This document shows, piece by piece, positions 3,647 to 62,518 of a stretch of DNA of 64,000 nucleotides (positions are counted from its first letter, which is position 1; every line of letters starts with the position of its first letter). The position numbers and the translations under genes are program-made. A model generated the notes under the pieces. It had not been told where the DNA came from and searched no databases. It worked only from the letters and a program-made list of their open reading frames with translations. The stretch lies in the NCBI GenBank assembly GCA_000004985.1, contig GG738845.1; one strand, 5' to 3'. This stretch comes from Naegleria gruberi (Eukaryota).

Positions 3647-6624
3647 TTATAGTTTTCGTTTAATGGTTCCTGGGTTAGATATTTCAATCAAATCTCTAAA
3701 GCAAAGAGCTCGCACCTGAACATTGAATAGAGATTGTAGTTTAGAATCATCCTTCTTTGCTTTTTTCATTTGTGCAAATCTCTCCAACCATTCAGCCACT
3801 TCAATTTCATACCTTACATTCATTTTACATTGTTCCAAGGTGTTTTTTGCCATGTACAAGTCTGGTGTTTCATGTTTTTCTTTTGTATTGTCACATAGGA
3901 ATAGAGTTGGATGGTAAAAGGCTAGATTGTACTCATAGCCTTCCCTCTTTGTGAGAGGTCTGATGAATTGATTGAGAGATTGTCCTTTCATAGGTTGAAT
4001 GAAAAATAATTCATTGAGCACCAACTTTTCGATCCATGGCCTTTTCGAATATTCTTTCGTATTGATGGAAATGAATTCGGTTTGATATATCGTAGAAGGA
4101 CTTGTAAACATGTCCGTAAATAGAGTTTTGAGCTTGCTTTGGACCTTCTTCCATGTTTCTTGAGAGATTTGTTCTGATGTTTCTGCTGTATCGATCTGAG
4201 AGGAGAGAATTGACTTTCTCTTTTGCTTTCTACCTTTGAAAATCGTTTCATCTTTGTATGTAGAGCAACATCCCTCACAATAATACTTGATAATGGTGTT
4301 GACTTCCTCTGGTGTAATGTCAATACATGAAAAGTGATAGTGATTTCTGCATCTTTCACACATAACCATTTCATTGGTTTTCCAAGATCCTCCACATTTA
4401 CAAAAAGTATTCTTCTTTCTTTTAGAGACTGATTTACCGGATTGGTGCTCTTTCAAAGCTTTACAATATTTACAATTAAATGCTCGTTTTTCACTGTAAT
4501 CAGTGGCCTTTTCCCCTACACATTTGCAGTGATACCAAATCTCACAACTCTCACACTGTATCATATCATCTCTTGAGCTATCATATATACCTCTACAGAA
4601 ACAATAATTTGTATCTTGTTGTTCAGTTCTAACACAAGTATTACAGTGGAAGGTTTTGGAAGGTGGGTTGTGAACTCCAACGCATGATTTGTGGAATACA
4701 TTATTGCAAAGATTACACTCAACCTTATCTCTTGGCTTGAGCTCGAGTTGACAAAAACAACTAGTCTTAGATTTGGGAATGAGTTGTTTTGGATCAAATT
4801 CTTCCTCATCGTCAGACATGTACTTAGCTGATTCAGAATTGGATTGGAATTGCTTTGTAAGATAATTCATTGTTTCTAGCGGTAAACTACTACTATCACC
4901 ACTGCTGATTAATTGTTCAGCAGTGGTATCGCTTGTTTGAATAGTTACATCTTTGAAAATGGAAGATAATGTATTATATTCCTCTTCAAATAGACCTTGG
5001 TTGCTTCTTATTTCATCAATTTTGACTTGCCAACAAGCTAAAAAGTCAACAATGTTTTCCTTTGGTATATCACCTCTATTATTGTTGGCATCATAAAGAA
5101 AAATATGATTAACTTACTTTAGTGCTGTAATAATCTTCTTGAACCAAGATTGCTCTTTGAAACTTCTTGGAGAAATAATGGACTGATGGATAATTAGGAC
5201 AAGATCGTCATTCTTCTCTTCACCAATTATTTCCAAGGTTTGTTTAACATTTTGCTCTTTAAAAACCAAGCAACGCAGGGCTATTTCGATCAATTCAACA
5301 ATGAGAGGATGAATGTAAAAGAAAAATCTGAATTGAGTTATACAGGGACTTATATCTTCTTCAGTAACATTGTTTCCACTTTAAACAACAACATTCTTAT
5401 CCAAACATTGATAAGGCTATTAACTTACAATTTCGATTTTACAGAAGGTAATGATTTCAATAGTGGCAATAACTCTTTAGAAAAGAGAATTTGTAAACAT
5501 TTTTCGTCTGGTAATGTGAAAAAAGCTCTAGTAAAAATAGAGAGTGGGCAATAGTGGAAATGTCTAGTATACAAATGCTATTCCATTTCAATAATTTCAG
5601 TAATCACATTGAAACTTACCTTGAGAGAGTTGGAAAAATGTTTGAGGGATGTAAAATCGTTCATTAAAAATTTCAAAACTTCATAGCTAGGTCTTAAATT
5701 AACATTGAAATTTTTCTGAATAAAGAGATCATTGGTACATTTCAAAAATAGTGGCTTTGCTAATGATTGAGTTTTGAACGTTTTGATTTGAAATCTGCTC
5801 AACTGTTGTACAATATTAGTTTGTTCAATTAAAAATAGTTTAACTTACATCAACATTCATCCCTTCCAAAATATCAACTCCCTTCTCATCCACTCTCAAG
5901 ATATTAATGATTGGAAATCTTGAAGAATATGATGAACACAACTCTAACCATTTTCCAATTTGAGGTACATTGTGAGTATTCTCGAAAACAAATACGATTG
6001 CCTTCTTTCCACCAGGTGAAGAATATGTCATTTCTTTAAGGGCGTCGGGTAATCCAAATACTTTGTTTGTATACTTTTGTGCAATTAGTGTCAATAGAGC
6101 TTTTAAGGTTGGAAACATTGTCTCTGATCTGAAAATGCAAACATGAAATCCGTCCAATTTTTGTCCTTTTTTTGGAGCTTCTTCCTCATAATCTTCATAG
6201 TCCTCGTATTCATCATATTCGTCATCATATTCCACATATGAATCTCTAATGAAAAATGATTCCATTAATTTGTCTATTATTTCGAAACAATTAACATTCG
6301 AAATGTGACATTTAACCTACTTGTTGTTGTTTTCAAAATGATTACAGGTGAAATACATTTACTCAAGCCTTTATCAAATCTTTCTGCAATATCCTGTAAC
6401 TCTTCAATAATTAACTCTTCAGTGTGGGTATTTTCTTCAGCACTTGCCTTTCTATTGATAAACTCTTCCACATTATGAATTGATGAATCTATAATTTTCT
6501 GATATTTATCATGTTTTAAAAAGTCCTTTCTTGCCTCCGATAAGTCTTGTTCTTCAAGAATCAACTTCTTCTTGTGTGATCTCCGCCTAGAACGAACAGG
6601 TATTGTCAAAGAGTTGTTTATCAT
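3647..6624 (-). CDS. ORC3: Origin recognition complex subunit 3-like protein with three inserted PHD fingers, 6 exons, 916 aa
   Basis: Exons are 6624..6321, 6273..5849, 5802..5620, 5577..5429, 5378..5118 and 5075..3647. Introns are 47, 46, 42, 50 and 42 nt, with GTAGGT/GTAAGT donors and AG acceptors; total 2751 nt is in frame. ORC3-like blocks recalled from human ORC3: AIVFVFENTH...RFPIINIL; FNVNLRPSYEVLKFLMNDFTSLKHFSNSLK|HLYTRHFHYCPLSIF; LPDEKC..SLPSVKS; FFFYIHPLIVELIEIALRCL. The C-terminal block is PDLYMAKNTLEQCKMNV..VAEWLERFAQM...RDLIEISNPGTIK. Three PHD fingers lie at 4759..4265: CFCQ..CNLCNNVFHKSCVG..HCNTC; YCFCRGIYDSSRDDMIQCESCEIWYHCKCVG..CKYC; FCKCGGSW..MVMCERCRNHYHFSCI..YCEGC. Confidence 0.72.
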
Positions 6625-6652: not shown

Positions 6653-6662
6653 TTTTGGCGGG
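6653..6662 (-). promoter_or_regulatory. E2F-type element CCCGCCAAAA, 38 nt upstream of the ORC3-like ATG
   Basis: The plus strand reads TTTTGGCGGG at 6653-6662. It lies in the 66-bp spacer between the exonuclease stop (6691) and the ORC3-like ATG (6624). The same 8-mer recurs upstream of three other genes (see findings). Confidence 0.5.
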
Positions 6663-18783: not shown

Positions 18784-18852
18784 AAATAATTTAGAATAAA
18801 TTATATTTCTGAAATTTCCTGAAAATTAATAAATAACCTTTGTAAACCTTTT

Positions 18853-19857
18853 TTATTGTTTGTTGGCCTTCTTTGCTTTTGCCAAAAAGTCGTCCTTCAT
18901 CTTGATAGTAAGCATGTATTCATTCTTTTGCTTGAATGGTTTATCTTCTTCAAGGGCTTTCTTTAAATCCATACCAGGGAATTCATTAGCAAGTTTTTCC
19001 TTAGCTTTACCAACAAAGTCTTTTAACATTTGGAAAGCTTGTTCTTCATTTTCAACACGGAAACACAAAATCTTTACCTTTTTTCCTGTCACCAAAAACT
19101 TGATCATTTTCTTCATCTTGACATCCAAATCATGAGTATCAATATTAGCAGAAAATCTAATTTCCTTAGTCTTCTTCTCTTCCAATTCCTTTTCTAAATC
19201 CTTCAACTGGCTCAACTTGTCCTTGATAATTGCATGTTTTAAAAATACAACATAATCACCCAATTTAACAACTGGTGGGCTAACAGAATCTACAACTAGG
19301 ATTAAATCTAATCCTTCATTGAGTGCAATTTCTTCTGCTGATTCTCTATCAATTTTATCGGCAATCATTGTACCATCACTGACACGAATAAGTCTATAGT
19401 GTGTAAATTCTTCTGGAATTTCATAATTTACAGGTTTAGTAATTTGGTCAATTCCGAGTTCCTCTTCCTTGGCTACAAGAATGGTCTTGCTTGTTCGGAG
19501 AGCCTTTTCTTTTTTAGAAGATGTTGTTCTAGCTTTGAAATAATTGGACCATTTAATATCAAGTTCTTGAGCAACACGATCCAAGTAAGCTGCCTCATCT
19601 TCTCCTTCATTGGCACTCTTAGGAACAGCAGTAGTATGATACATCATTTGTTGACCAGTACTTGTTGTTGTATTCATAAATAATGCATTATTATTAACAA
19701 ATTGTTTAGTATTCAAAGATAGTTGTTGATGTACAATATTCAAAAATCTATTATTATTATTATTGTTAATAATAATAGGAAGGATGGAATTTACACTAGG
19801 AGAGGAAGCGGATTTGAAAATTCCTCTGATATTATTTACAAGGCTTAACCTTTTCAT
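18853..19857 (-). CDS. MTIF3: Translation initiation factor IF-3, organellar (mitochondrial) type, 334 aa
   Basis: IF3 N-domain: YRLIRVSDGTMIADKIDRESAEEIALNEGLDLILVVDSVSPPVVKLGDY. IF3 C-domain: KEIRFSANIDTHDLDVKMKKMIKFLVTGKKVKI. There is a long N-terminal extension. Confidence 0.8.
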   Translation of the reverse strand: MKRLSLVNNIRGIFKSASSPSVNSILPIIINNNNNNRFLNIVHQQLSLNTKQFVNNNALFMNTTTSTGQQMMYHTTAVPKSANEGEDEAAYLDRVAQELDIKWSNYFKARTTSSKKEKALRTSKTILVAKEEELGIDQITKPVNYEIPEEFTHYRLIRVSDGTMIADKIDRESAEEIALNEGLDLILVVDSVSPPVVKLGDYVVFLKHAIIKDKLSQLKDLEKELEEKKTKEIRFSANIDTHDLDVKMKKMIKFLVTGKKVKILCFRVENEEQAFQMLKDFVGKAKEKLANEFPGMDLKKALEEDKPFKQKNEYMLTIKMKDDFLAKAKKANKQ

Positions 19858-24591: not shown

Positions 24592-24660
24592 AGGTATTGA
24601 AAGAATTAAACAGATTTAATCGAGCGGTGTTATTAATAGTTGTAGGTTTGTACGAACATT

Positions 24661-24669
24661 CCCGCCAAA
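24661..24669 (+). promoter_or_regulatory. E2F-type element CCCGCCAAA, 39 nt upstream of ATG 24700
   Basis: Read directly: ACATTCCCGCCAAATTTG. Confidence 0.5.
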
Positions 24670-24699: not shown

Positions 24700-25728
24700 A
24701 TGAGTCACAAATATCAAAAGGATTTCTCTCTGCCCAATAACTTTCAAGAGACTTTACGGGACTTTACTAGAGAGGTTTTAAGATCTCAACCTGGTAACAT
24801 TTATCGATTTGGATATGATTATTTTATGAAGCTGGCTAAGGAAATGGGAGAAAGTACACCTGTGGTTACTGCTGGAAACAATGCCTCCAAAGTTAATGAG
24901 GAGGAACCAGAACAAGAATACAAGGTTGTACATACAAATAATAATGATTTACATACTTTGGATGAATCTCTGAACGCTAGTAGTATTAAACCAAACGAAG
25001 ACGACTACCAAAATATTTCCAGCATTTCCATACAAGATAAACCTGTGAGCATTAAATCTCAAGACAAATTCGAAGACAATGATGTCGAAGAGGAGGGTGT
25101 AGATGAAGATCCAGAAGGTGGTGCAAATTCTGCTTTTGAAGGAGACATGCTCCAAGCTATTGTACAAATTTCAGACCAAGAGCTTTTAAATATTATCTAT
25201 AATCAATTAAGCTCGTTCGGATATGAAAATCTTCCTATGGATGTCATTAAGGATGAAATCAAAAAAGTTTTCAACTATCAACTCCCTGAAGCAATCATGC
25301 TCTTTGTTATGGCAGAATCAGAAATTTCAGAGGATGGTACAATTGAAATTGGTCAATTCTCTCAACAAGTGACAAATGTTTTGAAAACAATTGTGGGAGT
25401 AGAGTCGTTTATGGAAGAAATTAATGTCAATGAGGCCGATGTTGTTCATGGACTCAACAAGATGGAACTGGATGAAGAATTGAAGGCCATTTTCGAAAGA
25501 GCTGACGAAGGCCAAACAGGTGCCATTTCATTCGCCAAGTTCAGAAGAGAATTGTTGGAAGCAGACTTGGACCTTTCTAGAAGAGAGGTGAATATTGTTC
25601 TCTCTGAGGCTGAGTCAGATGAGCATGGTCAAGTTCTGTATGAGAAGAGTATTAATAGTGCTCACAGACTTTTATTCATTGCAAATATGTTTGATGATTT
25701 TTGTAATGAAAATGATTTACATTTCTAA
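24700..25728 (+). CDS. RIIa dimerisation/docking-domain protein with C-terminal EF-hand-like region (radial-spoke RSP7-like architecture), 342 aa
   Basis: The N-terminus LPNNFQETLRDFTREVLRSQPGNIYRFGYDYF matches the RIIa/DPY-30-type docking motif. The C-terminus IFERADEGQTGAISFAKFRREL is a degenerate EF-hand loop. The middle is acidic. Confidence 0.6.
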   Translation: MSHKYQKDFSLPNNFQETLRDFTREVLRSQPGNIYRFGYDYFMKLAKEMGESTPVVTAGNNASKVNEEEPEQEYKVVHTNNNDLHTLDESLNASSIKPNEDDYQNISSISIQDKPVSIKSQDKFEDNDVEEEGVDEDPEGGANSAFEGDMLQAIVQISDQELLNIIYNQLSSFGYENLPMDVIKDEIKKVFNYQLPEAIMLFVMAESEISEDGTIEIGQFSQQVTNVLKTIVGVESFMEEINVNEADVVHGLNKMELDEELKAIFERADEGQTGAISFAKFRRELLEADLDLSRREVNIVLSEAESDEHGQVLYEKSINSAHRLLFIANMFDDFCNENDLHF

Positions 25729-33393: not shown

Positions 33394-33993
33394 CTAGTCA
33401 TCCCACGACGACTGTTGTTTTGGAACATTCTCAAAATCTACTTCCTTATCATACTCATATCCCTCATCACCAGGTCTGATAACGTTGAATTTCTTGTCCA
33501 TCTCTGCCTTTACTCTCCTTAGGGTGACATCATCTAGCTTGTTCAAGTCTTTCTGTTGTGTTTCACTGTCTTCCTCATCCTCGTCAAAGTTATCGTCATC
33601 ACCTTGGTGATGGTACTTAGAGGTTGTATTATTGGTATTTGGGGAAGGTTTACTTTGGTTTTGTATAGATTGAGGCCTATTATCTGGAGGTAAAAATGAT
33701 TTTGTAGTAAAATCGACCAGTTTTCTGATCATTTTTGTAGTTTGATTTTCTGGAATGTGGGAGGCTAAATTCTTATGGTGCTTCATCAGGACATTAGACT
33801 TGATGTGTTCAACCAATTCATCTTCCTCTAATTCCGGATAGTTTTGTACAATGTAGTCTTCCAAGTAAATTTTTCGATGTCTGAGTTCCTTCTTTCCTTT
33901 CTTTGAAATTGTTGTATATTCAATTACGAGAGCACATAATTTCAATCTAATTCCAATTCTTAAAACATTTACATCATCGTTATTTGAGGGCAT
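33394..33993 (-). CDS. CEP19: CEP19-like centrosomal/basal-body protein, 199 aa
   Basis: The C-terminal block DLNKLDDVTLRRVKAEMDKKFNVIRPGDEGYEYDKEVDFENVPKQQSSWDD closely resembles the human CEP19 tail as I recall it ([20 protein letters not shown]...DPNFVYDIEVEF...SCGWD). The ATG is preceded by an A-tract. Confidence 0.6.
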   Translation of the reverse strand: MPSNNDDVNVLRIGIRLKLCALVIEYTTISKKGKKELRHRKIYLEDYIVQNYPELEEDELVEHIKSNVLMKHHKNLASHIPENQTTKMIRKLVDFTTKSFLPPDNRPQSIQNQSKPSPNTNNTTSKYHHQGDDDNFDEDEEDSETQQKDLNKLDDVTLRRVKAEMDKKFNVIRPGDEGYEYDKEVDFENVPKQQSSWDD

Positions 33994-34171
33994 TTTTTTT
34001 GTAGATTTTTGGAGGCAAAAATTTCGTTCAAATAAGCTTCAGTGCTACATTAAGGGAGCCTAAATATGGTAAAAACAATTCTTGTTTGTGGAAAAATTCT
34101 TCTTCTTGAAACCTATAACATGCAATATGTGTTGTTGATACATCCTACAAAGTAGTGAAACATGCTTGTTA

Positions 34172-34864
34172 TTATTCTCTCTCTGTATTATTCAATATGT
34201 ATTTTAAGGAGAGAGGATAGAAATTCTCAAAGAAATCATATTTTCTATAATCTAGATAATTGTGGGGCCACTTATCAATTCCAATCTTTTCCTTGATCTG
34301 ATAAAATTTTCTTTTAAGAGTTGATAAACTACATCCAAGAACATTGCATGCTTGCTGTTGAGTAAGATGCAAGAGACGTATCATCTCATCATCTGTAATA
34401 CTATCCACACTTCTTTTTCCTCTTTTTCCAATCATGGATGCATCGACTCGAATTATGGAAACATGTTGATCCTTTGAATAATTAAAATATGAATTCTTAT
34501 GAACATCTACTGGGCTTAACATTTGATTTTCCATGAATGTATAAACAACTTGTTCAAAGGGTTTTTCGCTAGTATTCGAACTATTGGAATCTCTATTCTT
34601 CATTTCGTACTTTCTTTTGATTTTTTTAGTTTTTTTCACTCCACCAATCCTGAATTTCGACATGTATTCGAATTGTGAGTTGGATGTTAAGCATGTGTCA
34701 TCAACATCCTCATGCACATGCATGCCATCCGTTGTCACATTAGCAGATGTGTTGTACGCAGATTCTGGTGATGGTAATCTCATACTATTGTTGTGTTGGT
34801 GTTGTTGTTGATTTCCCCTATTAATGTTTAAATAGATGTTATGGTTTGATGTTGTTTGATGCAT
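34172..34864 (-). CDS. RWP-RK domain DNA-binding protein, about 230 aa
   Basis: ITDDEMIRLLHLTQQQACNVLGCSLSTLKRKFYQIKEKIGIDKWPH matches the RWP-RK helix-turn-helix pattern (AA..LG.S.T.LKR.CR..GI.RWP), with KWPH in place of RWPxRK. The track start at 34867 is TTG; the first ATG is at 34864. Confidence 0.65.
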   Translation of the reverse strand: MHQTTSNHNIYLNINRGNQQQHQHNNSMRLPSPESAYNTSANVTTDGMHVHEDVDDTCLTSNSQFEYMSKFRIGGVKKTKKIKRKYEMKNRDSNSSNTSEKPFEQVVYTFMENQMLSPVDVHKNSYFNYSKDQHVSIIRVDASMIGKRGKRSVDSITDDEMIRLLHLTQQQACNVLGCSLSTLKRKFYQIKEKIGIDKWPHNYLDYRKYDFFENFYPLSLKYILNNTERE

Positions 34865-35857
34865 CAAGGCTGCGGAGGAGGATGTTATATTGGCTAGTGT
34901 TGAGATTTGTAGATGGATTCAAAAGCTCTGAGTACTCCATTGATGTGAAGTTGTGTTTTTTGTTGGTTTTTAATGATGGCAATGACTAGAAGAAAGAACA
35001 TAGATGAGCGAGTAAAGCTCGTCAGTGTAGATCGTTCGTTATTGGTTGGGAAGTTTTTTTGTTGTGTGTTGTTGGTGGTTCAAGGGTTGATTTCTTTGGA
35101 AAGAATAGACCTTTACTGGCCCAATTTATTATCGTTGCAACACTGGTTGAAGACAGAGAGTGTCCTTGACAATTCCATCGATTATCTTTTGGGTAATGGT
35201 GTTTTTGTGGTTTGAGATAATTTTGTTTAAGAAACTAACCAATCACATTATTCATTGTAAAATACACAACAAAAATTGAACCCAAATCATGTTTCAGATT
35301 TCTTATTATCAAGCAATGTGATATGACAGAACTATTTATTAATAATTTACATAAAATGTGATTCAAAATTTAAAACTCAAGAAAGATATTCTTCATAGTC
35401 TTCCTTCGAACTGTTAGAGAGGGATTAATTTAGAGTGATGAGGAAAAGCTATAAACGAAATAAACAATCAAGCTAATGATGGAGAGGTAAATAAAATCTA
35501 TTTAACAAGTCCGATTATTAATTATTAAAATATAATTGTTATTAAATTATCAATATCAACAACAACACATACTCATCAAAATAATTTCCCACGGTTCCAA
35601 CATGTAGTTAACACTCATAATTTGATAGTGTTTGAATTTTCTCTGAAGAAAGCCGATCATCTTGTTGCAATTTTTTATTTGATTTTAATGTCCTTGCTGC
35701 GAAAGGCAAACAGAAAAGTTATCGTTGAAAGTAATATCCTCTATCACCCTTCAACTAATTGGATGATAGAATTGTCGGTTCATGTAAGGAACGAGTAATA
35801 AGAAGAGCAAGATATAAGTAATTGGAGGAAACAACATTAAATAGATGATAAATATTT

Positions 35858-35866
35858 CCCGCCAAG
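35858..35866 (+). promoter_or_regulatory. E2F-type element TTTCCCGCCAAG, 37 nt upstream of ATG 35895
   Basis: Read directly: AATATTTCCCGCCAAGTGTT. Confidence 0.5.
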
Positions 35867-35894: not shown

Positions 35895-37295
35895 ATGAGC
35901 TCAAACCGAAGACCCAACAATAATAACACAGCACCTCCCCAACCCACAACAGCCGCTGCTAATCCAGCTGATGCTAAGAATTATGAAGAGTTGAAGGCGG
36001 AATTGGAGGAGACAAAGAGAAATAGAAATTACTACCAATTGGAAAGGGATAGAATAAATTCCTTCTGGGATATTACAAAGAAGGAAGTGGAAAATCTCAA
36101 GGGCGAGGTAAGGAACATGCAGAGGGAGATGGAAGAAAATGAAGAAAGACATCAGGTAGAATTAAAAGTGTACAAACAAAAAGTTAGACATCTTCTCTAT
36201 GAACAAAAGATCACCATTGATAGATTAAAAATTGAAAGTGAGAATGCTTTAAAGATCCAAGCTGATGAATTTAGGCAAAAATTAGCTCAATTGAAATCGG
36301 ATAAGAGAAAATTAAAAAGAGAACTCCACTCTATGGAAATAGCTTACCAAGAAGAAATCAAGGGGCTTAAAACGAATCAAGACAAAAACTTGACAAAACA
36401 AACTGAGACATTTGCAAGAAAACTTAAAGAGACCCAACTGAAATATGAAATGAAAATGAAAAAATTAAGAGAAGATTTAGAATTGAGAGGGAGAAAAGAA
36501 ACTGAAGAAATTGAAGAAAGAAAAAATACTCACATCAAACAATTAATGGAAAAACACAAACTTGCCTTTCAACAAATGAAGGATTACTATATAACTATTA
36601 CTAGAAATAACTTGGAATTAATCAAAACTCTGAAAGATGAAGCTGCACTGATGAAACAGGAAGAAGCAGACAATGAAAAACTCATGTTGGAAATTGCTCA
36701 AGACAATAAGAGATTGAGTGAACCTCTTGTTAAGGCTCTGGCAGAAGTTAAAAAGCTCAGAAATGAATTGGCCAACTACCAAAAGGACAAGCTATCTCTC
36801 AAAAATGCCAAGAGCAGGCTGGTCATGATGGAAGATCAATTGAAGAAATTGAAATGGGAACATGAGATTTTAGAACAAAGCCATAAGCAAGTGCACAGAG
36901 AACGTGACGATCTTTACGATAAGTTTGAAAAAACTATTCATGAAGTTCAACAAAAAACACTGTTCAAGAATCAAGTTCTTGAAACAAAGGTTTATGCACT
37001 TCAAGAAACTTTGGAAAAGAAGGATGCCCAAATTCATGAAATACTCAAAGCTTGTAACATAGATGAACACACAGCCGAAGAAATCTCTGAAGGTCTTGAT
37101 AATGTCATTGAAGAAAAGAACAACACGATACGAGAACTCAAATTTGAAATTGAAAAGATGAAGAAGAGTTATAATGATTTGATACGAGTAATTAATGCCA
37201 AGATGCAACAGTATGGAATTGAGGATGAGTTAGGTATTGAACCAATCGCTAACGTTGTTGATGAAGGTGTCCCAGGTAGAGTATGGGTAAAATAA
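35895..37295 (+). CDS. GAS8: Nexin-dynein regulatory complex subunit 4 (GAS8 / PF2 / trypanin), 466 aa
   Basis: RNYYQLERDRINSFWDITKKEVENLKGEVRNMQREMEENEERHQVELKVYKQKVRHLLYEQ is near-collinear with human GAS8 ([24 protein letters not shown]...[28 protein letters not shown]). It continues through ...NKRLSEPL.. and WEHEILEQ..ERDDLYDKF..IHEVQQKT.FKN. Confidence 0.9.
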   Translation: MSSNRRPNNNNTAPPQPTTAAANPADAKNYEELKAELEETKRNRNYYQLERDRINSFWDITKKEVENLKGEVRNMQREMEENEERHQVELKVYKQKVRHLLYEQKITIDRLKIESENALKIQADEFRQKLAQLKSDKRKLKRELHSMEIAYQEEIKGLKTNQDKNLTKQTETFARKLKETQLKYEMKMKKLREDLELRGRKETEEIEERKNTHIKQLMEKHKLAFQQMKDYYITITRNNLELIKTLKDEAALMKQEEADNEKLMLEIAQDNKRLSEPLVKALAEVKKLRNELANYQKDKLSLKNAKSRLVMMEDQLKKLKWEHEILEQSHKQVHRERDDLYDKFEKTIHEVQQKTLFKNQVLETKVYALQETLEKKDAQIHEILKACNIDEHTAEEISEGLDNVIEEKNNTIRELKFEIEKMKKSYNDLIRVINAKMQQYGIEDELGIEPIANVVDEGVPGRVWVK

Positions 37296-44868: not shown

Positions 44869-45080
44869 TACAATTTTTCCCCATGGAAAAATAAGAGTTT
44901 TGTCAAATGTTGATTATATGAGATATTTAACAAGGGTATTATTTAAATCTCAAAAGGAAGAGATTGAAATCAATCATATTGTATGGACATTGAGTTTCAA
45001 TAGTAGTTACTGAAGAGTAGAGTACAAGAAAAAACCTCAAACAATCTTGAGAAGAATTATAAATGTAATAATTTTAAAAT

Positions 45081-45090
45081 CCCGCCAAAA
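45081..45090 (+). promoter_or_regulatory. E2F-type element CCCGCCAAAA, 47 nt upstream of ATG 45128
   Basis: Read directly: TTAAAATCCCGCCAAAATTATTAC. Confidence 0.5.
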
Positions 45091-45127: not shown

Positions 45128-46291
45128 ATGGCCATCGCTACCTCTCCAAAGTCTTCAGTGCTAAAAGCCACAAACACAAGCACGGGAGCAACCTCAACTC
45201 CACCAACATCACATACATCCCCGAAGAGAAATAATAACAACAATAAGGATGGACAACAAGTGTTGAGGAAGATTTATAGGTGCGACTCTGAAATTAAACG
45301 TATGAAGGAACAAGATGAAAAGCAACTACGAATAGAAAGATTAAAACAAGTCAGACAAATGGCTATGGATATTGCAAAAAACAAGACAAAACAATATGCA
45401 CAAGCAAAGGAAAAGGAAAATCAAAGTAATTTGAAGGTAATCAAAAAAGCATGGGAAGAAAGAAAGGAAGAAGAGATTGATCAACTCCAAACAGAGTTGG
45501 ATTATGCTAGAAAAAAAGCTGGTGAAGCCAATAGGAATGCACTCCAATTTAATAAGGAATTCCATCTTCAACAACAGAAGAAACATGAGCAAAATAAGGC
45601 AAACGCTTTAATAGCTCAACAGAGGTTTGATAAATGTGTCAGTATTGTCAAACAAAGACAGGTCGAGAATCAAAAGAAAAAGGATAATCTCTTTGAAAGA
45701 ATTGAAAAATCAAAGAACATGGAATATCCAGAAATTGAGCCTGTCCACAATGGATATGAAAAGTTGTTTGCAGTTCCATCTCGTGACCTGAATGATGTAG
45801 TGGCTGGTTGGAATCCTACCAAAAAGAGAGAAGACCAGGGAATTTACGAGACGACGTTTAATCACCAAATGGTTTTAGAACCAACCTCACCAGAAAAGCA
45901 AACAGCTATTAAAGTTAATCAACATGTGGTCAAACATTTTGATAAACAGGCTGGTGTTGATGTAAATAATGAACAAGCCGAATTGACCTTAGAGGAAAAA
46001 AAGAGGACAGCTTTGCAAAGAGCATTTTCAGAAAAGAGATTTGCAAGAAAAGCCGCAGAAAAGGTGCGAAATGAAAAATTTAATGAGATTATTGTTGAAG
46101 AATTAGAACGAGTATCCAAAATTGATAGACAACTTAAAGTTGAGTCCATACAGAATCCTTCTAGAAATACTCTGGCAGACAATCAATACAAGAAGAAAAA
46201 GCAAATGGAACTGGAAAGAAAATTTGAAGAGCTCTTCAGAAATAGGGTCCATTTTGCAGATAAACCAGAAGAAAAGAGCAGTTACTTTTAA
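45128..46291 (+). CDS. Coiled-coil K/E/Q-rich protein, 387 aa (family not recognised; possibly ciliary or centrosomal)
   Basis: Clean ORF with heptad-like charged sequence throughout. The only hint of a flagellar link is the shared upstream motif. Confidence 0.5.
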   Translation: MAIATSPKSSVLKATNTSTGATSTPPTSHTSPKRNNNNNKDGQQVLRKIYRCDSEIKRMKEQDEKQLRIERLKQVRQMAMDIAKNKTKQYAQAKEKENQSNLKVIKKAWEERKEEEIDQLQTELDYARKKAGEANRNALQFNKEFHLQQQKKHEQNKANALIAQQRFDKCVSIVKQRQVENQKKKDNLFERIEKSKNMEYPEIEPVHNGYEKLFAVPSRDLNDVVAGWNPTKKREDQGIYETTFNHQMVLEPTSPEKQTAIKVNQHVVKHFDKQAGVDVNNEQAELTLEEKKRTALQRAFSEKRFARKAAEKVRNEKFNEIIVEELERVSKIDRQLKVESIQNPSRNTLADNQYKKKKQMELERKFEELFRNRVHFADKPEEKSSYF

Positions 46292-47160: not shown

Positions 47161-47628
47161 TTACTTTTGCATCATCATCTTGACGAATTCAGTATAGTTG
47201 ATTTGGTTATCACCGTCAATATCGGCTTCACGAATCATTTCATCAACTTCTTCGTCTGTGAGTTTTTCACCTAGGTTGCACATAACGTGTCTGAGTTCTT
47301 GAGCAGAAATGAAACCGTTTCCGTCCTTATCGAAAACTTTGAAAGCTTCCTTGATTTCTTCTTCGTTATCAGTATCCTTCATCTTCTTGGCCATCATTGT
47401 CAAAAATTCAGTGAAATCTATTGTTCCATTACCATCAGCATCAACTTCGTTAATCATGTCGTGGAGTTCTGCTTCAGTTGGGTTTTGTCCCAATGATCTC
47501 ATAACAGTTCCCAATTCGCTTGTAGTAATAGTACCATCACCGTCCTTATCGAACAGAGAGAAGGCTTCCTTAAATTCAGCGATTTGTTCTTCAGTTAATT
47601 CGTTATTGCTAATAGCTTCTCTACTCAT
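47161..47628 (-). CDS. CaM-1: Calmodulin with N-terminal extension (flagellar CaM-1 type), 155 aa
   Basis: [55 protein letters not shown]...; four canonical EF-hands. The track ORF extends to a TTG at 47730, but the calmodulin starts at ATG 47628. Confidence 0.95.
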
Positions 47629-47719
47629 TTTGTATACAAGGGTCTTCGTTAGGGATTTTTTTAAGGTTATGTTTTTATTCGGTTGATGTATTGGCCAATT
47701 TATTGTAACTACAGTATTT

Positions 47720-47731
47720 TTTGGCGCCAAA
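47720..47731. promoter_or_regulatory. Perfect 12-nt palindrome TTTGGCGCCAAA (double E2F-type half-sites), 92 nt upstream of the calmodulin ATG
   Basis: Read directly at 47720-47731, in the calmodulin/CDK20 divergent intergenic region. Confidence 0.45.
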
Positions 47732-47843
47732 GATTTACAACGTTGTTTTCGTAGGCGAACTGGTTAGAAAGCGCGTCTTCTAGATTAATTGGCCTTTCAT
47801 CGCTAATCACACTCACTACAAAATTCAGAACCACAAGAGATGA

Positions 47844-47851
47844 GCGCCAAA
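47844..47851 (+). promoter_or_regulatory. E2F-type half-site GCGCCAAA in the calmodulin/CDK20 intergenic region
   Basis: Read directly: GATGAGCGCCAAACAAG. It lies about 400 nt upstream of the CDK20 ATG. Confidence 0.3.
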
Positions 47852-48257
47852 CAAGTGCTATCAGTGCGACAATTAGGAAAATAGCGAACCCTTAATGAAT
47901 GGAAGGTTATTATCTTCTCATAAACAATGATCACTTTATAAACCAATACTTTTTCTCATCAGCATATATGGTTTTAACATTGTTTTTTTTGAAATATGTC
48001 GTAATGGGTTATGGTTGAATACAGGTCCTACTACTAGTTCCTTATTGGATGTTTCCCTCATGTGGAAGTTGTGCCCCATGAGTTGAACTTTGTTAAGGTA
48101 CTTTGTCATCCCTATATTCACAACTTTTGAAGAGTGACCAATTGTTATCTTTGAGTATTGGTGGGTTTAAAAGGATGATTTTTGTTCGAACACGCTCATA
48201 CAATGGTTTCATACAAATGAATCAAAGAAGTTGGTTTTGTATGCAACAAAGTAAAAA

Positions 48258-49285
48258 ATGGCCACAAACTACTTGATGGAAAATTATACAATTATTGAGA
48301 AGATTGGTGAGGGAACATTCGGACAAGTATTAAAAGCAAAAAGGTAAGTAGTAAAAGGAAGATAATGATCTTTAATATAATTTAGGAAGGCTGATGGACG
48401 AGTTGTGGCCTTAAAGAAAATTAGAATTAGGAAACAAGAATTTGAAGACTTTCCGAAAAATGTAATTAGAGAAGCAAAAAGTCTTCAACATGTGTGCCAC
48501 AATAATGTCATCAAGTTGTATGATGTCTTTGTGAATGGATCATCTCTTGTTCTCTCATTAGAATTTATGAAAACAGATTTGGCAAGAATTATTAAAGCCC
48601 AAAGGACACCCTTCCTTGAGTCTCATATCAAATGTATAATGCTAATGATGTTAAAGGGTCTCCACAATTGTCACACCAATAGTATCATGCACAGAGTATG
48701 TAGGAAAGTGTAATTATTTAGAAATTAATTATGTGGAATTATTAGGACATCAAACCTGCCAACTTACTTTTCAATCACAACGGAGAGTTAAAACTGGGAG
48801 ATTTTGGATTGGCTACGTTGTATCTTGGAAAGAATGAATCTTACTCACATCAAGTTGCAACAAGATGGTACAGAGCTCCAGAACTTTTGTATGGAAGTAG
48901 ATCTTATGATTGTAAAGTAGATATTTGGGCAGCTGGTTGTGTCATGGCAGAATTGTACAATCTTTGTCCCTTATTCACTGGTGAAAATGATATTGATCAA
49001 TTATATAAGGTACTTTCACTTTTGGGAATTCCTTCAGAAAATAATTGGCCAGGAGTTTCCAAGTTGCCAGATTTTGGCAAGATAACCTTCTCGAAAATTA
49101 AAGTGAGAACGATCAGTGAACTAGTTCCAGGAGCTCCTGATTTGGCTCTTGATCTTATGTCACATCTATTAAGATTTGACAATGATGAAAGATATAGTGC
49201 TGAGGAGGCCTTAAGACATCCATACTTTTTTAGTGAACCTTTGCCTTGTGATTTTTCAGAGCTTAAATTGCCAAACAAGATGTAG
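48258..49285 (+). CDS. CDK20: Cyclin-dependent kinase 20 (CCRK / LF2-type), 3 exons, 311 aa
   Basis: Exons are 48258..48343, 48386..48695 and 48746..49285. Introns are 42 and 50 nt (GTAAGT..TTTAG; GTATGT..ATTAG). Splicing restores GEGTFGQVLKAK|RKADGRVVALKKI and IMHR|DIKPANLL. SHQVATRWYRAPELLYG and HPYFFSEPLPCDFSELKLP parallel human CDK20. Confidence 0.85.
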
Positions 49286-61258: not shown

Positions 61259-62518
61259 ATGGGTAATTCATCTTCGGGTGGAGGAGGTTCCTCTTCAACA
61301 ACCACAACCAATCCATCTGCAAGTCAAGTTGCTGATTTAAAGATACAATCAACAGAGTATGATTTTGCATCTAAATTGTTCAAGAGCTTGATTGGAGTGG
61401 CTGGACATGGTAATAATTTGATAATTTCTCCTCTATCAATTTTTGTTGCATTATCGATGGTTATGTGTGGCGCCAATGGTAAAACTCTTCTTGAGATGAG
61501 TAATGCACTTTCATATGGAGATTCTGATTTCTCTCAAGTGAAAGATAATCAATTGAAGCAGTTTATTGATGGAATTGTGGAACATTTATCTTATTCTGAG
61601 AATACATTATCATTGGCCAATAATATTTATATTTCCAATAGTATTGAATTACAAGATGCTTTTAAAAACACAATGAAGGAAATATTCAAAGCAGATTTGA
61701 AGCAGACAGATTTCACTCATTCAACTAAAGCTGCTAATGAAATTAATGAATGGGTTTCTGAAAAGACGGCTGAAAAAATTAAGGATCTCATTAATCCATC
61801 ATCCATTAATGCAAGTACGAAATTAATTTTGGTGAATGCCATAACTTTCTTTGGATCCTGGAAAAATACATTCGATATCAAACAAACAGATGAAGATGGA
61901 GAATTTTACACAGTGAATGGAGTGGTTAAGAGTGTGCCACTCATGAAAAAACGATTTGTAAAATTGCCATACGGAGAAGATGATTCTTACAAATGGGTCA
62001 CATTAGAATATTCAGAATATAATTTTGCAATGAAATTGTTTCTTCCCAAGACACCAAACACAAAAGTTTCTGATAAGGTAGAATCAAAATTTGATGAGTG
62101 GATTACTAAGAAACTATCTCAAAGATCGAATCTATCCAAATTTCCAACGAGTGAGAAAAAACTCGAATCGTTCATTCTTCCAAGATTTGAGGCTGAATAT
62201 TCATCCTCACTAAATGAAATTCTTCAAAAGGCTCCCTTTTCGATGACATCTGCATTCTCAGCAGGTGCTGATTTCAGTCAAATGGACAAGAATAATTCTG
62301 TAATGATTGATAAGGTTTTTCACAAAGCTGTCATTAAGGTTAATGAGGAAGGTACAGAGGCTGCAGCTGCCACTTATGTGAGTATGAGAGCGAAATCTAA
62401 AAAGGTAAAGAAAGAGGTTGTTTATTCATTTAAAGCTGACCAACCTTTCTTTTATATGATTACATATAAGGATCACATCTTATTCCTTGGCAAGACTAAT
62501 AATCCTAATAAAAAATAG
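61259..62518 (+). CDS. Serpin (inhibitory-type reactive-centre loop), 419 aa, N-terminal MGNSSSG
   Basis: NLIISPLSIFVALSMVMCGANGKTLLEM; NAITFFGSWKNTF; hinge and RCL VNEEGTEAAAATYVSMRAK|SKK at 62345-62398; FKADQPFFYMI. There is no signal peptide. The N-terminus fits the MGxxxS myristoylation pattern. Confidence 0.85.
   Translation: MGNSSSGGGGSSSTTTTNPSASQVADLKIQSTEYDFASKLFKSLIGVAGHGNNLIISPLSIFVALSMVMCGANGKTLLEMSNALSYGDSDFSQVKDNQLKQFIDGIVEHLSYSENTLSLANNIYISNSIELQDAFKNTMKEIFKADLKQTDFTHSTKAANEINEWVSEKTAEKIKDLINPSSINASTKLILVNAITFFGSWKNTFDIKQTDEDGEFYTVNGVVKSVPLMKKRFVKLPYGEDDSYKWVTLEYSEYNFAMKLFLPKTPNTKVSDKVESKFDEWITKKLSQRSNLSKFPTSEKKLESFILPRFEAEYSSSLNEILQKAPFSMTSAFSAGADFSQMDKNNSVMIDKVFHKAVIKVNEEGTEAAAATYVSMRAKSKKVKKEVVYSFKADQPFFYMITYKDHILFLGKTNNPNKK

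What the first reader, a model, noticed from the sequence alone, without database searches (positions are those of the whole stretch)
47629..48257. Calmodulin/CDK20 divergent promoter carries a perfect palindromic double E2F-type site
The 629-bp spacer between flagellar-type calmodulin (minus, ATG 47628) and CDK20/LF2 (plus, ATG 48258) contains TTTGGCGCCAAA at 47720-47731. This is a perfect 12-nt palindrome and is the idealised overlapping E2F site, comparable to the DHFR-type TTTCGCGCCAAA. A second half-site, GCGCCAAA, lies at 47844-47851. Both flanking genes are cilium-linked. The site is a variant (GGCGCC core) of the CCCGCCAA element found upstream of DRC4 and the RIIa gene. One caveat: GGCGCCAA also occurs once inside the serpin CDS (61469-61476), so the shorter core is not promoter-exclusive.
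Basis: partly seen in the sequence, partly recalled or inferred. Interest (0 to 1): 0.5.

Follow-up and report, generated by a model that had tools for sequence, protein, structure and literature searches.

The report
E2F-like box marking Naegleria flagellar genes
The palindrome upstream of the Naegleria flagellar calmodulin gene is real, conserved in sister species, and belongs to an E2F-type DNA box (TTTSSCGCCA) found just upstream of axonemal genes and of none of 113 other annotated gene starts examined, which gives a testable candidate for the unknown switch that turns on flagellum genes.

Summary
TTTGGCGCCAAA lies at 47720-47731, 92 nt upstream of the flagellar calmodulin ATG of Naegleria gruberi NEG-M, and GCGCCAAA lies at 47844-47851.

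- The core TTGGCGCCA recurs 100-128 nt upstream of calmodulin in N. lovaniensis and N. fowleri. In those species calmodulin is not next to CDK20.
- CDK20 promoters in N. fowleri and Willaertia lack the box. It is therefore a calmodulin element, not a shared bidirectional one.
At the same position upstream of DRC4, N. gruberi and Willaertia have TTTCCCGCCAA, while N. lovaniensis and N. fowleri have TTTGGCGCCA.

Across the window and eight loci, SSCGCCA lies within 150 nt upstream of 9/9 axonemal gene starts (calmodulin, DRC4, RSP7, LC8) and 0/113 other annotated starts. An ODAD2-like gene carries it as well.

Both forms equal published E2F motifs. N. gruberi encodes one E2F, one DP, one DEL and RB, with a conserved recognition helix.

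Binding by E2F is inferred, not shown. A 1995 paper on shared calmodulin/tubulin DNA elements could not be read.

The parts
47720..47731 (.). Palindrome TTTGGCGCCAAA. This is the E2F-type box of the flagellar calmodulin promoter; its near edge is 92 nt upstream of the ATG at 47628. On the calmodulin strand it reads TCTTTGGCGCCAAAAAATAC.
   Evidence: The core TTGGCGCCA is conserved at -114 (N. lovaniensis L006) and -128 (N. fowleri L007), measured from the first S of SSCGCCA.
47844..47851 (+). Distal half-site GCGCCAAA, which reads TTTGGCGC on the calmodulin strand and begins at -223. It is a possible accessory site and is not conserved in sister species.
   Evidence: CGCCAA on either strand occurs 14 times in the window, so 0.14 copies are expected per 629 nt.
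47161..47628 (-). Flagellar calmodulin gene (CaM-1), the gene served by the palindrome.
   Evidence: 100% identical to P53440 / XP_002683533, N. gruberi NEG-M.
47655..47667 (-). ACCTTAAAAAAAT block, 27-39 nt upstream of the calmodulin ATG. It is shared by the three Naegleria calmodulin promoters. It may be a core-promoter or 5'-UTR element; its role is unknown.
   Evidence: read from the sequences.
35855..35865 (+). TTTCCCGCCAA box, 37 nt upstream of the DRC4/GAS8 ATG (35895), followed by TTTAC.
   Evidence: Orthologous position: W. magna TTTCCCGCCAAAA; N. lovaniensis and N. fowleri TTTGGCGCCATC; metagenomic relative L014 TTGGCGCCAA.
35895..37295 (+). DRC4/GAS8 gene (NAEGRDRAFT_88226), an axonemal nexin-dynein regulatory complex subunit.
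   Evidence: PF13851, 4e-72.
24659..24669 (+). TTCCCGCCAAA box, 39 nt upstream of the ATG of the RIIa/EF-hand gene.
24700..25728 (+). Radial spoke protein 7 (RSP7)-like gene with RIIa and EF-hand domains.
   Evidence: PF02197. (Chlamydomonas RSP7 chain 7jtk_M, E 3.5e-26).
45079..45089 (+). ATCCCGCCAAA box, 47 nt upstream of the ATG of a lineage-restricted coiled-coil gene (cc387, 45128..46291).
   Evidence: The N. lovaniensis orthologue (L015) has TTTGGCGCCC at -54. The protein has only 2 relatives among 1.84 billion representatives.
6653..6662 (-). CCCGCCAAAA box, 38 nt upstream of the ATG at 6624 of a multi-exon gene of unresolved identity. The gene has a borderline ORC3_N match and its reading frame runs on into PHD fingers.
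   Evidence: ORC3_N 24.9 bits against a cut-off of 25.
48258..49285 (+). CDK20/CCRK/LF2-type kinase gene. Proposed exons: 48258-48343, 48386-48696, 48746-49285.
   Evidence: Orthologue promoters lack the box.

Best explanation
The palindrome is the promoter box of the flagellar calmodulin gene. It belongs to a family of boxes, consensus (A/T)TT[G/C][G/C]CGCCA(A/T), often followed 4-9 nt later by a TTTAC-like motif. In Naegleria and Willaertia these boxes sit upstream of the start codon of axonemal genes. They lie 28-54 nt upstream for DRC4, RSP7 and ODAD2, and 100-128 nt upstream for calmodulin and LC8.

Shown here:
- the positional constraint of the box;
- the conservation across species;
- the interchange of the GGCGCC and CCCGCC forms at one orthologous position;
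- the restriction to axonemal promoters.

Inferred:
- The box is recognised by an E2F-family winged-helix factor. N. gruberi has one E2F, one DP and one DEL/E2F7-8 type.
- This factor couples transcription of the flagellar gene set to cell-cycle exit when amoebae differentiate.
- The coupling could work as an activator complex, as E2F4/5 does in vertebrate multiciliated cells.
- Alternatively it could work by release of a repressor (E2F-RB or DEL) that keeps these genes silent in proliferating amoebae.

CDK20 is only a chance neighbour in N. gruberi.
For: 1. Conservation at calmodulin despite changed neighbours. N. gruberi has TCTTTGGCGCCAAAAAATAC (-100), N. lovaniensis AAATTGGCGCCACATTTTTAC (-114) and N. 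fowleri ACATTGGCGCCACATTTTTAC (-128). The surrounding sequence is otherwise hard to align.
2. DRC4 promoters carry the box at -37 to -51 in five lineages, with a GG/CC swap. cc387 shows the same swap.
3. Specificity. SSCGCCA lies within 150 nt upstream of 9/9 axonemal starts and 0/113 other annotated starts (Fisher 8e-14). In an unbiased 6-mer screen CGCCAA/TTGGCG ranks first (9/9 against 1/113).
4. Two unselected extra cases turned up in flanking DNA:
- N. fowleri LC8, which has TTTCGCGC plus TTGGCGCCATTTT;
- an ODAD2/ARMC4-like gene in both N. lovaniensis and N. fowleri.
5. The sequences match published E2F motifs. The E2F1 SELEX motif is TTTGGCGCCAAA (PMC5449588). The E2F7/8 ChIP cluster is tTTCCCGCCAaAa and the E2F1-6/DP cluster is TTCCCGCC (bioRxiv 10.1101/2025.11.09.687492). 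E2Fs of an oomycete, a plant and human all bind CGCCA (PMC11267843).
6. The candidate factors exist. NgruE2F, NgruDP, NgruDEL and NgruRB are in supplementary files 4 and 6 of PMC4862756. The NgruE2F DNA-binding domain matches human E2F4 (1cf7_A) at 6.5e-25, and the aligned stretch [26 protein letters not shown] differs at one residue. NgruDEL matches E2F8 (4yo2_A) at 4e-19.
7. RFX, FOXJ1 and XAP5 are absent from Naegleria, and the regulators of its cilia genes are unknown (PMC12183034).
Against: - No binding or expression experiment was possible.
- The targets are not the classical E2F class (replication and cell cycle). Flagellar genes are off in proliferating cells, the opposite of ordinary E2F targets.
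- Seven of the nine 'axonemal promoters' are orthologues of two genes chosen after the motif was seen, so the Fisher value overstates independence.
- Two cilium-linked genes in the window (CEP19, CDK20) lack the box.
- One Naegleria-like lineage has a degenerate TTTCCCTCGCAAAA at the DRC4 position (L017-L019). A more distant DRC4 locus has none (L016).
- All six non-palindromic sites point the same way as their gene. That would also fit an RNA (5'-UTR) element, since no transcription start sites are known here.
- One box-bearing gene (g6624) looks like a chromatin or replication gene rather than a ciliary one.
Confidence: 0.55

Rival explanations
1. The box is a real, conserved flagellar-regulon element, but it is read by a lineage-specific factor unrelated to E2F. 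The likeness to E2F sites is then convergence on a short GC-rich palindrome in an AT-rich genome.
For: - The target set (axonemal genes, off in cycling cells) is unlike classical E2F regulons.
- The invariant part is CGCCA plus an upstream TT, which is only 7-9 informative positions.
- Naegleria cilia-gene regulators are unknown.
- An RWP-RK transcription-factor gene sits near DRC4 in both N. gruberi and W. magna. This is only a coincidence of position.
Against: - Both alternative forms (GGCGCC and CCCGCC) are exactly the two forms known for E2F proteins, and the S/S degeneracy is that of TTTSSCGC.
- N. gruberi has E2F, DP and DEL with a conserved recognition helix.
- E2F specificity for CGCCA holds across kingdoms.
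Confidence: 0.25
2. The element acts in the mRNA, as a 5'-UTR motif affecting stability, translation or localisation of flagellar mRNAs, rather than as a DNA site.
For: - All six non-palindromic CCCGCC sites are in the sense orientation, 28-51 nt upstream of the ATG.
- Transcription start sites are not known here.
- Flagellar mRNAs of Naegleria are known to be co-localised (PMC2139841, abstract).
- The title of Fulton et al. 1995 mentions shared RNA elements.
Against: - The palindromic forms carry no strand information yet are used interchangeably with the oriented forms.
- The calmodulin mRNA was the one of the four tested that was not listed as co-localised in that study (abstract).
- The coordinate rise of flagellar mRNAs is largely transcriptional by nuclear run-on (Lee and Walsh 1988, as summarised in PMC12183034).
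- Naegleria 5' UTRs are generally short (from my own knowledge), which would put a box at -37 to -54 upstream of or at the start site.
Confidence: 0.1
3. One reading: one palindromic double site shared by a bidirectional calmodulin/CDK20 promoter and co-regulating both cilium-linked genes.
For: - The site is symmetric and lies between two divergent genes that are both cilium-linked.
- A second half-site points towards CDK20.
Against: - The head-to-head arrangement exists only in N. gruberi. In N. fowleri and W. magna a small gene and TFIIA-gamma lie upstream of CDK20. In N. lovaniensis and N. fowleri an ABC-transporter 3' end lies upstream of calmodulin.
- CDK20 promoters lack the box.
- The palindrome is 527 nt from the CDK20 ATG, whereas every other instance is 28-128 nt from its ATG.
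- The spacer has no homology to CDK20 upstream regions of sister species.
- N. gruberi and N. fowleri CDK20 share a TTTTGTATG about 25 nt upstream of the ATG, which suggests CDK20 has its own proximal promoter.
Confidence: 0.07
4. The palindrome is a chance occurrence with no function.
For: With one mismatch allowed, 9 of 100 shuffled windows contain such a 12-mer.
Against: - The exact 12-mer was never seen in 100 shuffles.
- The core is conserved in two further species at the same distance.
- The family is about 15-fold over-represented and positionally locked to start codons.
Confidence: 0.02

Closest known systems
Overlapping inverted E2F sites of TATA-less promoters (DHFR-type TTTCGCGCCAAA) and the E2F1 SELEX palindrome TTTGGCGCCAAA
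   Same: - The N. gruberi calmodulin box is identical to the 12-mer E2F1 consensus.
- It is promoter-proximal.
- It consists of two inverted TTTSSCGC halves sharing a GC core.
   Different: - Only the 9-nt TTGGCGCCA is kept in sister species, so the second half is not under visible constraint.
- The gene served is a flagellar calmodulin, not a G1/S gene.
- DHFR details are from my own knowledge and were not checked here.
Atypical E2F7/E2F8 (plant DEL) site TTTCCCGCCAAAA
   Same: - The DRC4, RSP7, cc387 and g6624 boxes read (T)TTCCCGCCAA(A/G). This is the E2F7/8 ChIP cluster almost base for base.
- They are asymmetric and oriented.
- N. gruberi has one DEL-type protein with two DNA-binding domains.
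   Different: - No evidence shows which family member, if any, binds.
- E2F7/8 are repressors of cell-cycle genes in animals, whereas here the genes are axonemal.
E2F4/5-DP1-MCIDAS/GEMC1 programme of vertebrate multiciliated cells
   Same: An E2F-type site is used in post-mitotic cells that build basal bodies and motile cilia de novo (summarised in PMC12183034 and PMC5839779).
   Different: - In vertebrates the direct E2F targets are mainly centriole-biogenesis genes and upstream regulators (FOXJ1, RFX), and axonemal genes are driven by FOXJ1/RFX.
- In Naegleria the box sits directly on axonemal structural genes (DRC4, RSP7, ODAD2, LC8, calmodulin).
- It is absent from the centriole or ciliogenesis genes seen here (CEP19, CDK20).
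- MCIDAS/GEMC1, FOXJ1 and RFX are not known in Naegleria.
RFX X-box upstream of ciliary genes in animals
   Same: It works like an X-box: a short palindromic box at a fixed short distance upstream of many ciliary genes that can be used to predict new ciliary genes.
   Different: - The sequence is unrelated (the X-box is GTNRCC-N-RGYAAC, from my own knowledge).
- RFX is absent from Naegleria.
Shared upstream elements of Naegleria calmodulin and tubulin genes (Fulton, Lai and Remillard 1995, J Biol Chem 270:5839)
   Same: It concerns the same gene and the same idea: co-expressed flagellar genes share DNA elements (title only).
   Different: The text is not held. I cannot say whether the palindrome is one of their elements or whether E2F was proposed. 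Axonemal genes such as DRC4, RSP7 and ODAD2 were not known in Naegleria at that date.

Membership tests
E2F binding site | The sequence fits TTTSSCGC (palindromic form TTTSGCGCSAAA; atypical form TTCCCGCCAAA). | tested here: met
   47720-47731 equals TTTGGCGCCAAA. Four boxes read TCCCGCCAA or ACCCGCCAA. The alignment of 16 sites gives tTT[G/C][G/C]CGCCA.
E2F binding site | The organism encodes E2F/DP-family winged-helix proteins with the DNA-contacting RRxYD helix. | tested here: met
   NgruE2F, NgruDP and NgruDEL sequences come from supplementary file 4 of PMC4862756. 1cf7_A (E2F4) matches at 6.5e-25 with [26 protein letters not shown] differing at one residue. 4yo2_A (E2F8) matches at 4.4e-19. 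These proteins are not encoded in the window.
E2F binding site | The site is physically bound by an E2F-family protein. | not testable with these tools
   This needs EMSA, DAP-seq or ChIP with NgruE2F/DP and NgruDEL.
E2F binding site | The site lies close to the transcription start of the regulated gene. | tested here: inconclusive
   The boxes lie 28-54 nt (most genes) or 100-128 nt (calmodulin, LC8) upstream of the ATG. No start-site data are available.
E2F binding site | The target genes are cell-cycle or DNA-replication genes. | tested here: not met
   Identified targets are axonemal: DRC4, RSP7, ODAD2-like, LC8 and flagellar calmodulin. Only g6624 has a borderline ORC3_N match. No replication-gene loci were available to test.
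Bidirectional (shared) promoter element | The head-to-head gene pair is conserved in related species. | tested here: not met
   Calmodulin and CDK20 are unlinked in N. fowleri, N. lovaniensis and W. magna.
Bidirectional (shared) promoter element | The element is associated with both genes wherever they occur. | tested here: not met
   The box is present upstream of calmodulin in 3/3 species and absent upstream of CDK20 in N. fowleri and W. magna. The metagenomic relative L005 has no match, only a near-miss ACCGCCAG before the called start.
Cilium-gene promoter box (functional class, like the X-box) | Enriched at a fixed short distance upstream of ciliary genes and rare elsewhere. | tested here: met
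   9/9 against 0/113 promoters. Five of six window loci fall in 8.6% of the sequence. This covers only about 230 kb of four species, not a genome-wide test.
Cilium-gene promoter box (functional class, like the X-box) | Conserved in orthologous promoters of diverged species. | tested here: met
   Calmodulin has it in 3 species, DRC4 in 5 lineages, cc387 in 2 and ODAD2 in 2. Exceptions are L017-19, where it is degenerate, and L016, where it is absent.

The most novel reading that the evidence does not exclude
A member of the single-copy E2F/DP/DEL set of Naegleria directly switches on (or releases from repression) the axonemal gene battery during the amoeba-to-flagellate differentiation. The E2F-to-motile-cilium link known from vertebrate multiciliated cells would then also exist in a discoban protist. 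That would mean either an ancient coupling of cell-cycle exit to ciliogenesis or a striking convergence. The box could also be used, like the X-box, to predict unknown flagellar genes such as the lineage-restricted coiled-coil protein cc387.
Probability: 0.4. Interest if true: 0.85.

Novelty: new variant of a known kind. Interest (0 to 1): 0.66.

Why it matters
Coordinated transcriptional induction of flagellar genes in Naegleria has been studied since the 1970s. A 2025 review still states that its transcription factors are unknown, because RFX, FOXJ1 and XAP5 are missing.

A short conserved box that equals the E2F consensus narrows the search to three single-copy proteins: E2F, DP and DEL. 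It offers a simple sequence tag for predicting flagellar genes. It also raises the question whether the use of E2F for building motile cilia in non-dividing cells is older than animals.

For annotation, the box also flags mis-set start codons, for example in the ODAD2-like gene.

Tried and rejected
- MAFFT alignment of the three calmodulin upstream regions put the N. gruberi box out of register. Conservation was therefore read from anchored sequences.
- I looked for a small conserved gene or any homology between the N. gruberi spacer and the CDK20 upstream regions of N. fowleri and W. magna. Nothing significant was found.
- Two metagenome scans found nothing: RSP7 relatives, and a degenerate pattern for the calmodulin N-terminal extension.
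- Papers not held: Fulton et al. 1995 and Fritz-Laylin and Cande 2010. No supplements are held for the Kennard et al. RNA-seq preprint. Expression of the box-bearing genes during differentiation could therefore not be checked.
- No searchable paper links Naegleria promoters to E2F.
- Identity of cc387: no Pfam or PDB match.
- Identity of g6624: only a borderline ORC3_N match and no PDB match. My greedy splice model that fuses it to the PHD-finger ORF is unreliable at its 3' end.
- NFI (TTGGC-N5-GCCAA) and the RFX X-box were considered and rejected on spacing and sequence, and on the absence of RFX.
- The WD40 gene with a box in L014 could not be identified beyond a generic WD40.

Full report
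**Source and observation**

The window is Naegleria gruberi NEG-M.
- The ORF 47161..47628 (-) is identical to flagellar calmodulin P53440/XP_002683533.
- The ORF 35895..37295 (+) is identical to NAEGRDRAFT_88226.
- GC content is 33%.

The reported features are all present.
- TTTGGCGCCAAA is at 47720-47731, GCGCCAAA at 47844-47851, and GGCGCCAA inside the serpin ORF at 61469-61476.
- The exact 12-mer never appeared in 100 dinucleotide-preserving shuffles. With one mismatch allowed it is not rare (expectation 0.09).
- The + strand gene at 48258 is a three-exon CDK20/CCRK-type kinase.

**The palindrome belongs to a positionally locked family**

- CCCGCCAA occurs four times in the window. Each copy is intergenic, in the sense orientation, and 37-47 nt upstream of an ATG (counted from the first S). 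These ATGs are at 6624 (-), 24700 (+), 35895 (+) and 45128 (+).
- SSCGCCAA is found 7 times against 0.47 expected.
- Five of the six distinct SSCGCCA loci lie in the 8.6% of the window that is within 150 nt upstream of a start codon (binomial 2.6e-5).
- Two of the four genes are axonemal. One is DRC4/GAS8 (PF13851, 4e-72). The other is an RIIa/EF-hand protein that matches Chlamydomonas radial spoke protein 7 (7jtk_M, 3.5e-26).
- The other two are a coiled-coil protein with only two relatives among 1.84 billion representatives, and a multi-exon gene with a borderline ORC3_N match (24.9 bits against a cut-off of 25).

**Orthologous calmodulin promoters**

The calmodulin protein of N. lovaniensis and N. 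fowleri (P0243) led to loci L006 and L007. There the upstream neighbour is the 3' end of an ABC-transporter gene, not CDK20.

The upstream regions are hard to align with N. gruberi, yet the core TTGGCGCCA is present once in each:

| Species | Sequence | Distance from ATG |
|---|---|---|
| N. gruberi | TCTTTGGCGCCAAAAAATAC | -100 |
| N. lovaniensis | AAATTGGCGCCACATTTTTAC | -114 |
| N. fowleri | ACATTGGCGCCACATTTTTAC | -128 |

The 12-nt palindrome is therefore N. gruberi-specific. An 8-nt palindrome, TGGCGCCA, with an upstream T-rich flank is what is kept. The distal half-site at 47844 has no clear counterpart in the other species.

**CDK20 is not a partner**

- In N. fowleri (L003) and W. magna (L004), CDK20 is preceded by a small gene and TFIIA-gamma.
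- In a metagenomic relative (L005) it is preceded by an Arf-type GTPase gene.
- None of these upstream regions has the box. L005 has only a near-miss ACCGCCAG just before its called start.
- The N. gruberi spacer shows no homology to these regions.
- N. gruberi and N. fowleri share TTTTGTATG about 25 nt upstream of the CDK20 ATG, which suggests CDK20 has its own proximal promoter.
- The palindrome is 527 nt from the CDK20 ATG, well outside the 28-128 nt range of all other instances.

The 'divergent promoter' reading is not supported.

**The two forms are one element**

At the same position upstream of DRC4 the species show the following:

| Lineage | Box | Distance from ATG |
|---|---|---|
| N. 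gruberi | TTTCCCGCCAAG | -37 |
| W. magna | TTTCCCGCCAAAA | -51 |
| N. lovaniensis | TTTGGCGCCATC | -41 |
| N. fowleri | TTTGGCGCCATC | -41 |
| Metagenomic relative, 63% protein identity (L014) | TTGGCGCCAA | -40 |

- The orphan gene cc387 shows the same swap: ATCCCGCCAAA in N. gruberi and TTTGGCGCCC in N. lovaniensis.
- In most cases a TTTAC-like motif follows 4-9 nt downstream.
- There are two exceptions. One Naegleria-like lineage has a degenerate TTTCCCTCGCAAAA at the DRC4 position (L017-19). A more distant DRC4 locus (L016) has nothing.

**Specificity**

- I used the window and eight loci (about 230 kb) and the public or ORF-based start codons. SSCGCCA on either strand lies within 150 nt upstream of 9/9 axonemal starts and 0/113 other starts (Fisher 8e-14).
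- The nine axonemal starts are RSP7, DRC4 in four species, calmodulin in three species, and N. fowleri LC8.
- In an unbiased 6-mer screen CGCCAA/TTGGCG ranks first.
- This figure overstates independence, because seven of the nine are orthologues of two genes chosen after the motif was seen.
- Two cases were unselected. The LC8 gene happened to lie in the CDK20 locus; it has TTTCGCGC plus TTGGCGCCATTTT.
- The second unselected case is an ARM-repeat gene in the DRC4 flanks. Its best solved relatives are ARMC4/ODAD2 (2e-38).
- That gene carries the box in both N. lovaniensis (GGCCCGCCAAGAG) and N. fowleri (GGCGCGCCATAAG). The box sits about 28-32 nt upstream of an AAAAAAATG that is followed at once by a splice donor.
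- CEP19 and CDK20, which are cilium-linked but not axonemal structural genes, lack the box.

**What reads it**

Both forms equal published E2F motifs.
- The E2F1 HT-SELEX motif is TTTGGCGCCAAA (PMC5449588).
- The E2F7/8 cluster is tTTCCCGCCAaAa, and the E2F1-6/DP/LIN9 cluster is TTCCCGCC (bioRxiv 10.1101/2025.11.09.687492).
- E2F proteins of an oomycete, a plant and human all bind CGCCA (PMC11267843).

N. gruberi has one E2F, one DP, one DEL and RB (supplements of PMC4862756).
- The E2F DNA-binding domain aligns to human E2F4 in 1cf7 at 6.5e-25, and the stretch [26 protein letters not shown] differs at one residue.
- DEL aligns to E2F8 (4yo2) at 4e-19.

Binding is an inference. So is the direction of control, whether activation as with E2F4/5-MCIDAS or release of an E2F-RB or DEL repressor on cell-cycle exit.

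The rivals that remain are an unrelated lineage-specific factor and an RNA-level (5'-UTR) role. The second is suggested by the sense orientation of all six asymmetric sites. It is weakened by the free exchange with palindromic forms and by the run-on evidence for transcriptional control summarised in PMC12183034.

**Novelty and limits**

- No searchable paper connects Naegleria flagellar promoters with E2F.
- The 2025 review states that the regulators are unknown.
- The title of Fulton, Lai and Remillard (1995) says that the calmodulin and tubulin genes share DNA elements, and that text is not held. The calmodulin box itself may therefore already have been noted.
- The wider family on DRC4, RSP7, ODAD2 and LC8, the form swap, and the E2F reading appear to be new.
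- The sample is small and targeted. A genome-wide scan crossed with expression data is the obvious decisive computation.

Noticed in passing
L011 about 16012-19067 (-); L012 about 16437-19144 (-): An ARM-repeat gene whose best solved relatives are ARMC4/ODAD2 (outer dynein arm docking complex). The box lies about 28-32 nt upstream of an AAAAAAATG that is followed at once by GTATGT/GTAGGT. The start codon therefore seems to sit at the end of a tiny first exon, and the public gene models start elsewhere.
   Followed up: partly
window 6624..about 4900 (-), running into ORF 3647..4870 (-): A multi-intron gene with the box at -38. Its N-terminal 354 aa score 24.9 bits on Pfam ORC3_N (cut-off 25). 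The reading frame stays open into a triple PHD-finger ORF. If it is ORC3, it would be a classical E2F-type target next to the flagellar ones.
   Followed up: partly
window 45128..46291 (+): A 387-aa coiled-coil protein with no Pfam or PDB match and only two relatives among 1.84 billion representative proteins. It carries the box in two species, so it is a candidate lineage-specific flagellar or basal-body protein.
   Followed up: partly
window about 34000-34030 (-), upstream of CEP19 (33394..33993): TTTTTGCCTCCAAAAATCTACAAA has the same flanks as the DRC4 box of N. lovaniensis, but with a GCCTCC core instead of GGCGCC. It may be a decayed or variant site.
   Followed up: no
window 47629-47735 (-); L006 and L007 9870-10000: The calmodulin promoters of three Naegleria species share ordered blocks after the box: GTAkTTACrAT, CATACAACC/ACATCAACC and ACCTTAAAAAAAT. 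The last is at window 47655-47667.
   Followed up: partly
L003 1434-1467: The N. fowleri LC8-type dynein light chain promoter has a canonical TTTCGCGC 25 nt upstream of TTGGCGCCATTTT, that is, two E2F-type sites.
   Followed up: partly
window 34172..34867 (-); L010 2016-2513 (-): An RWP-RK transcription-factor gene lies within a few kb of DRC4 in both N. gruberi and W. magna.
   Followed up: no
L014 about 6315-6347 (-): In the metagenomic heterolobosean-like contig, GGCGCCAAG lies 32 nt upstream of the ATG of an unidentified WD40 protein. The public gene call starts inside the box.
   Followed up: partly
L001 1-433 against window 47629-48061: A metagenome contig (ERZ929261) carries a second N. 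gruberi-like haplotype or strain with about seven differences in 433 nt of the spacer. None falls in either box.
   Followed up: partly
L015 about 9695-9770 (-): A tRNA-like sequence lies about 250-300 nt upstream of the cc387 orthologue in N. lovaniensis.
   Followed up: no
window 47161..47628 (-): The calmodulin N-terminal extension MSREAIS (MSRDTIG in N. fowleri and N. lovaniensis) resembles the tubulin N-terminus MREx-I. This is probably the 'encoded protein sequence element' in the title of the 1995 paper (my inference).
   Followed up: no
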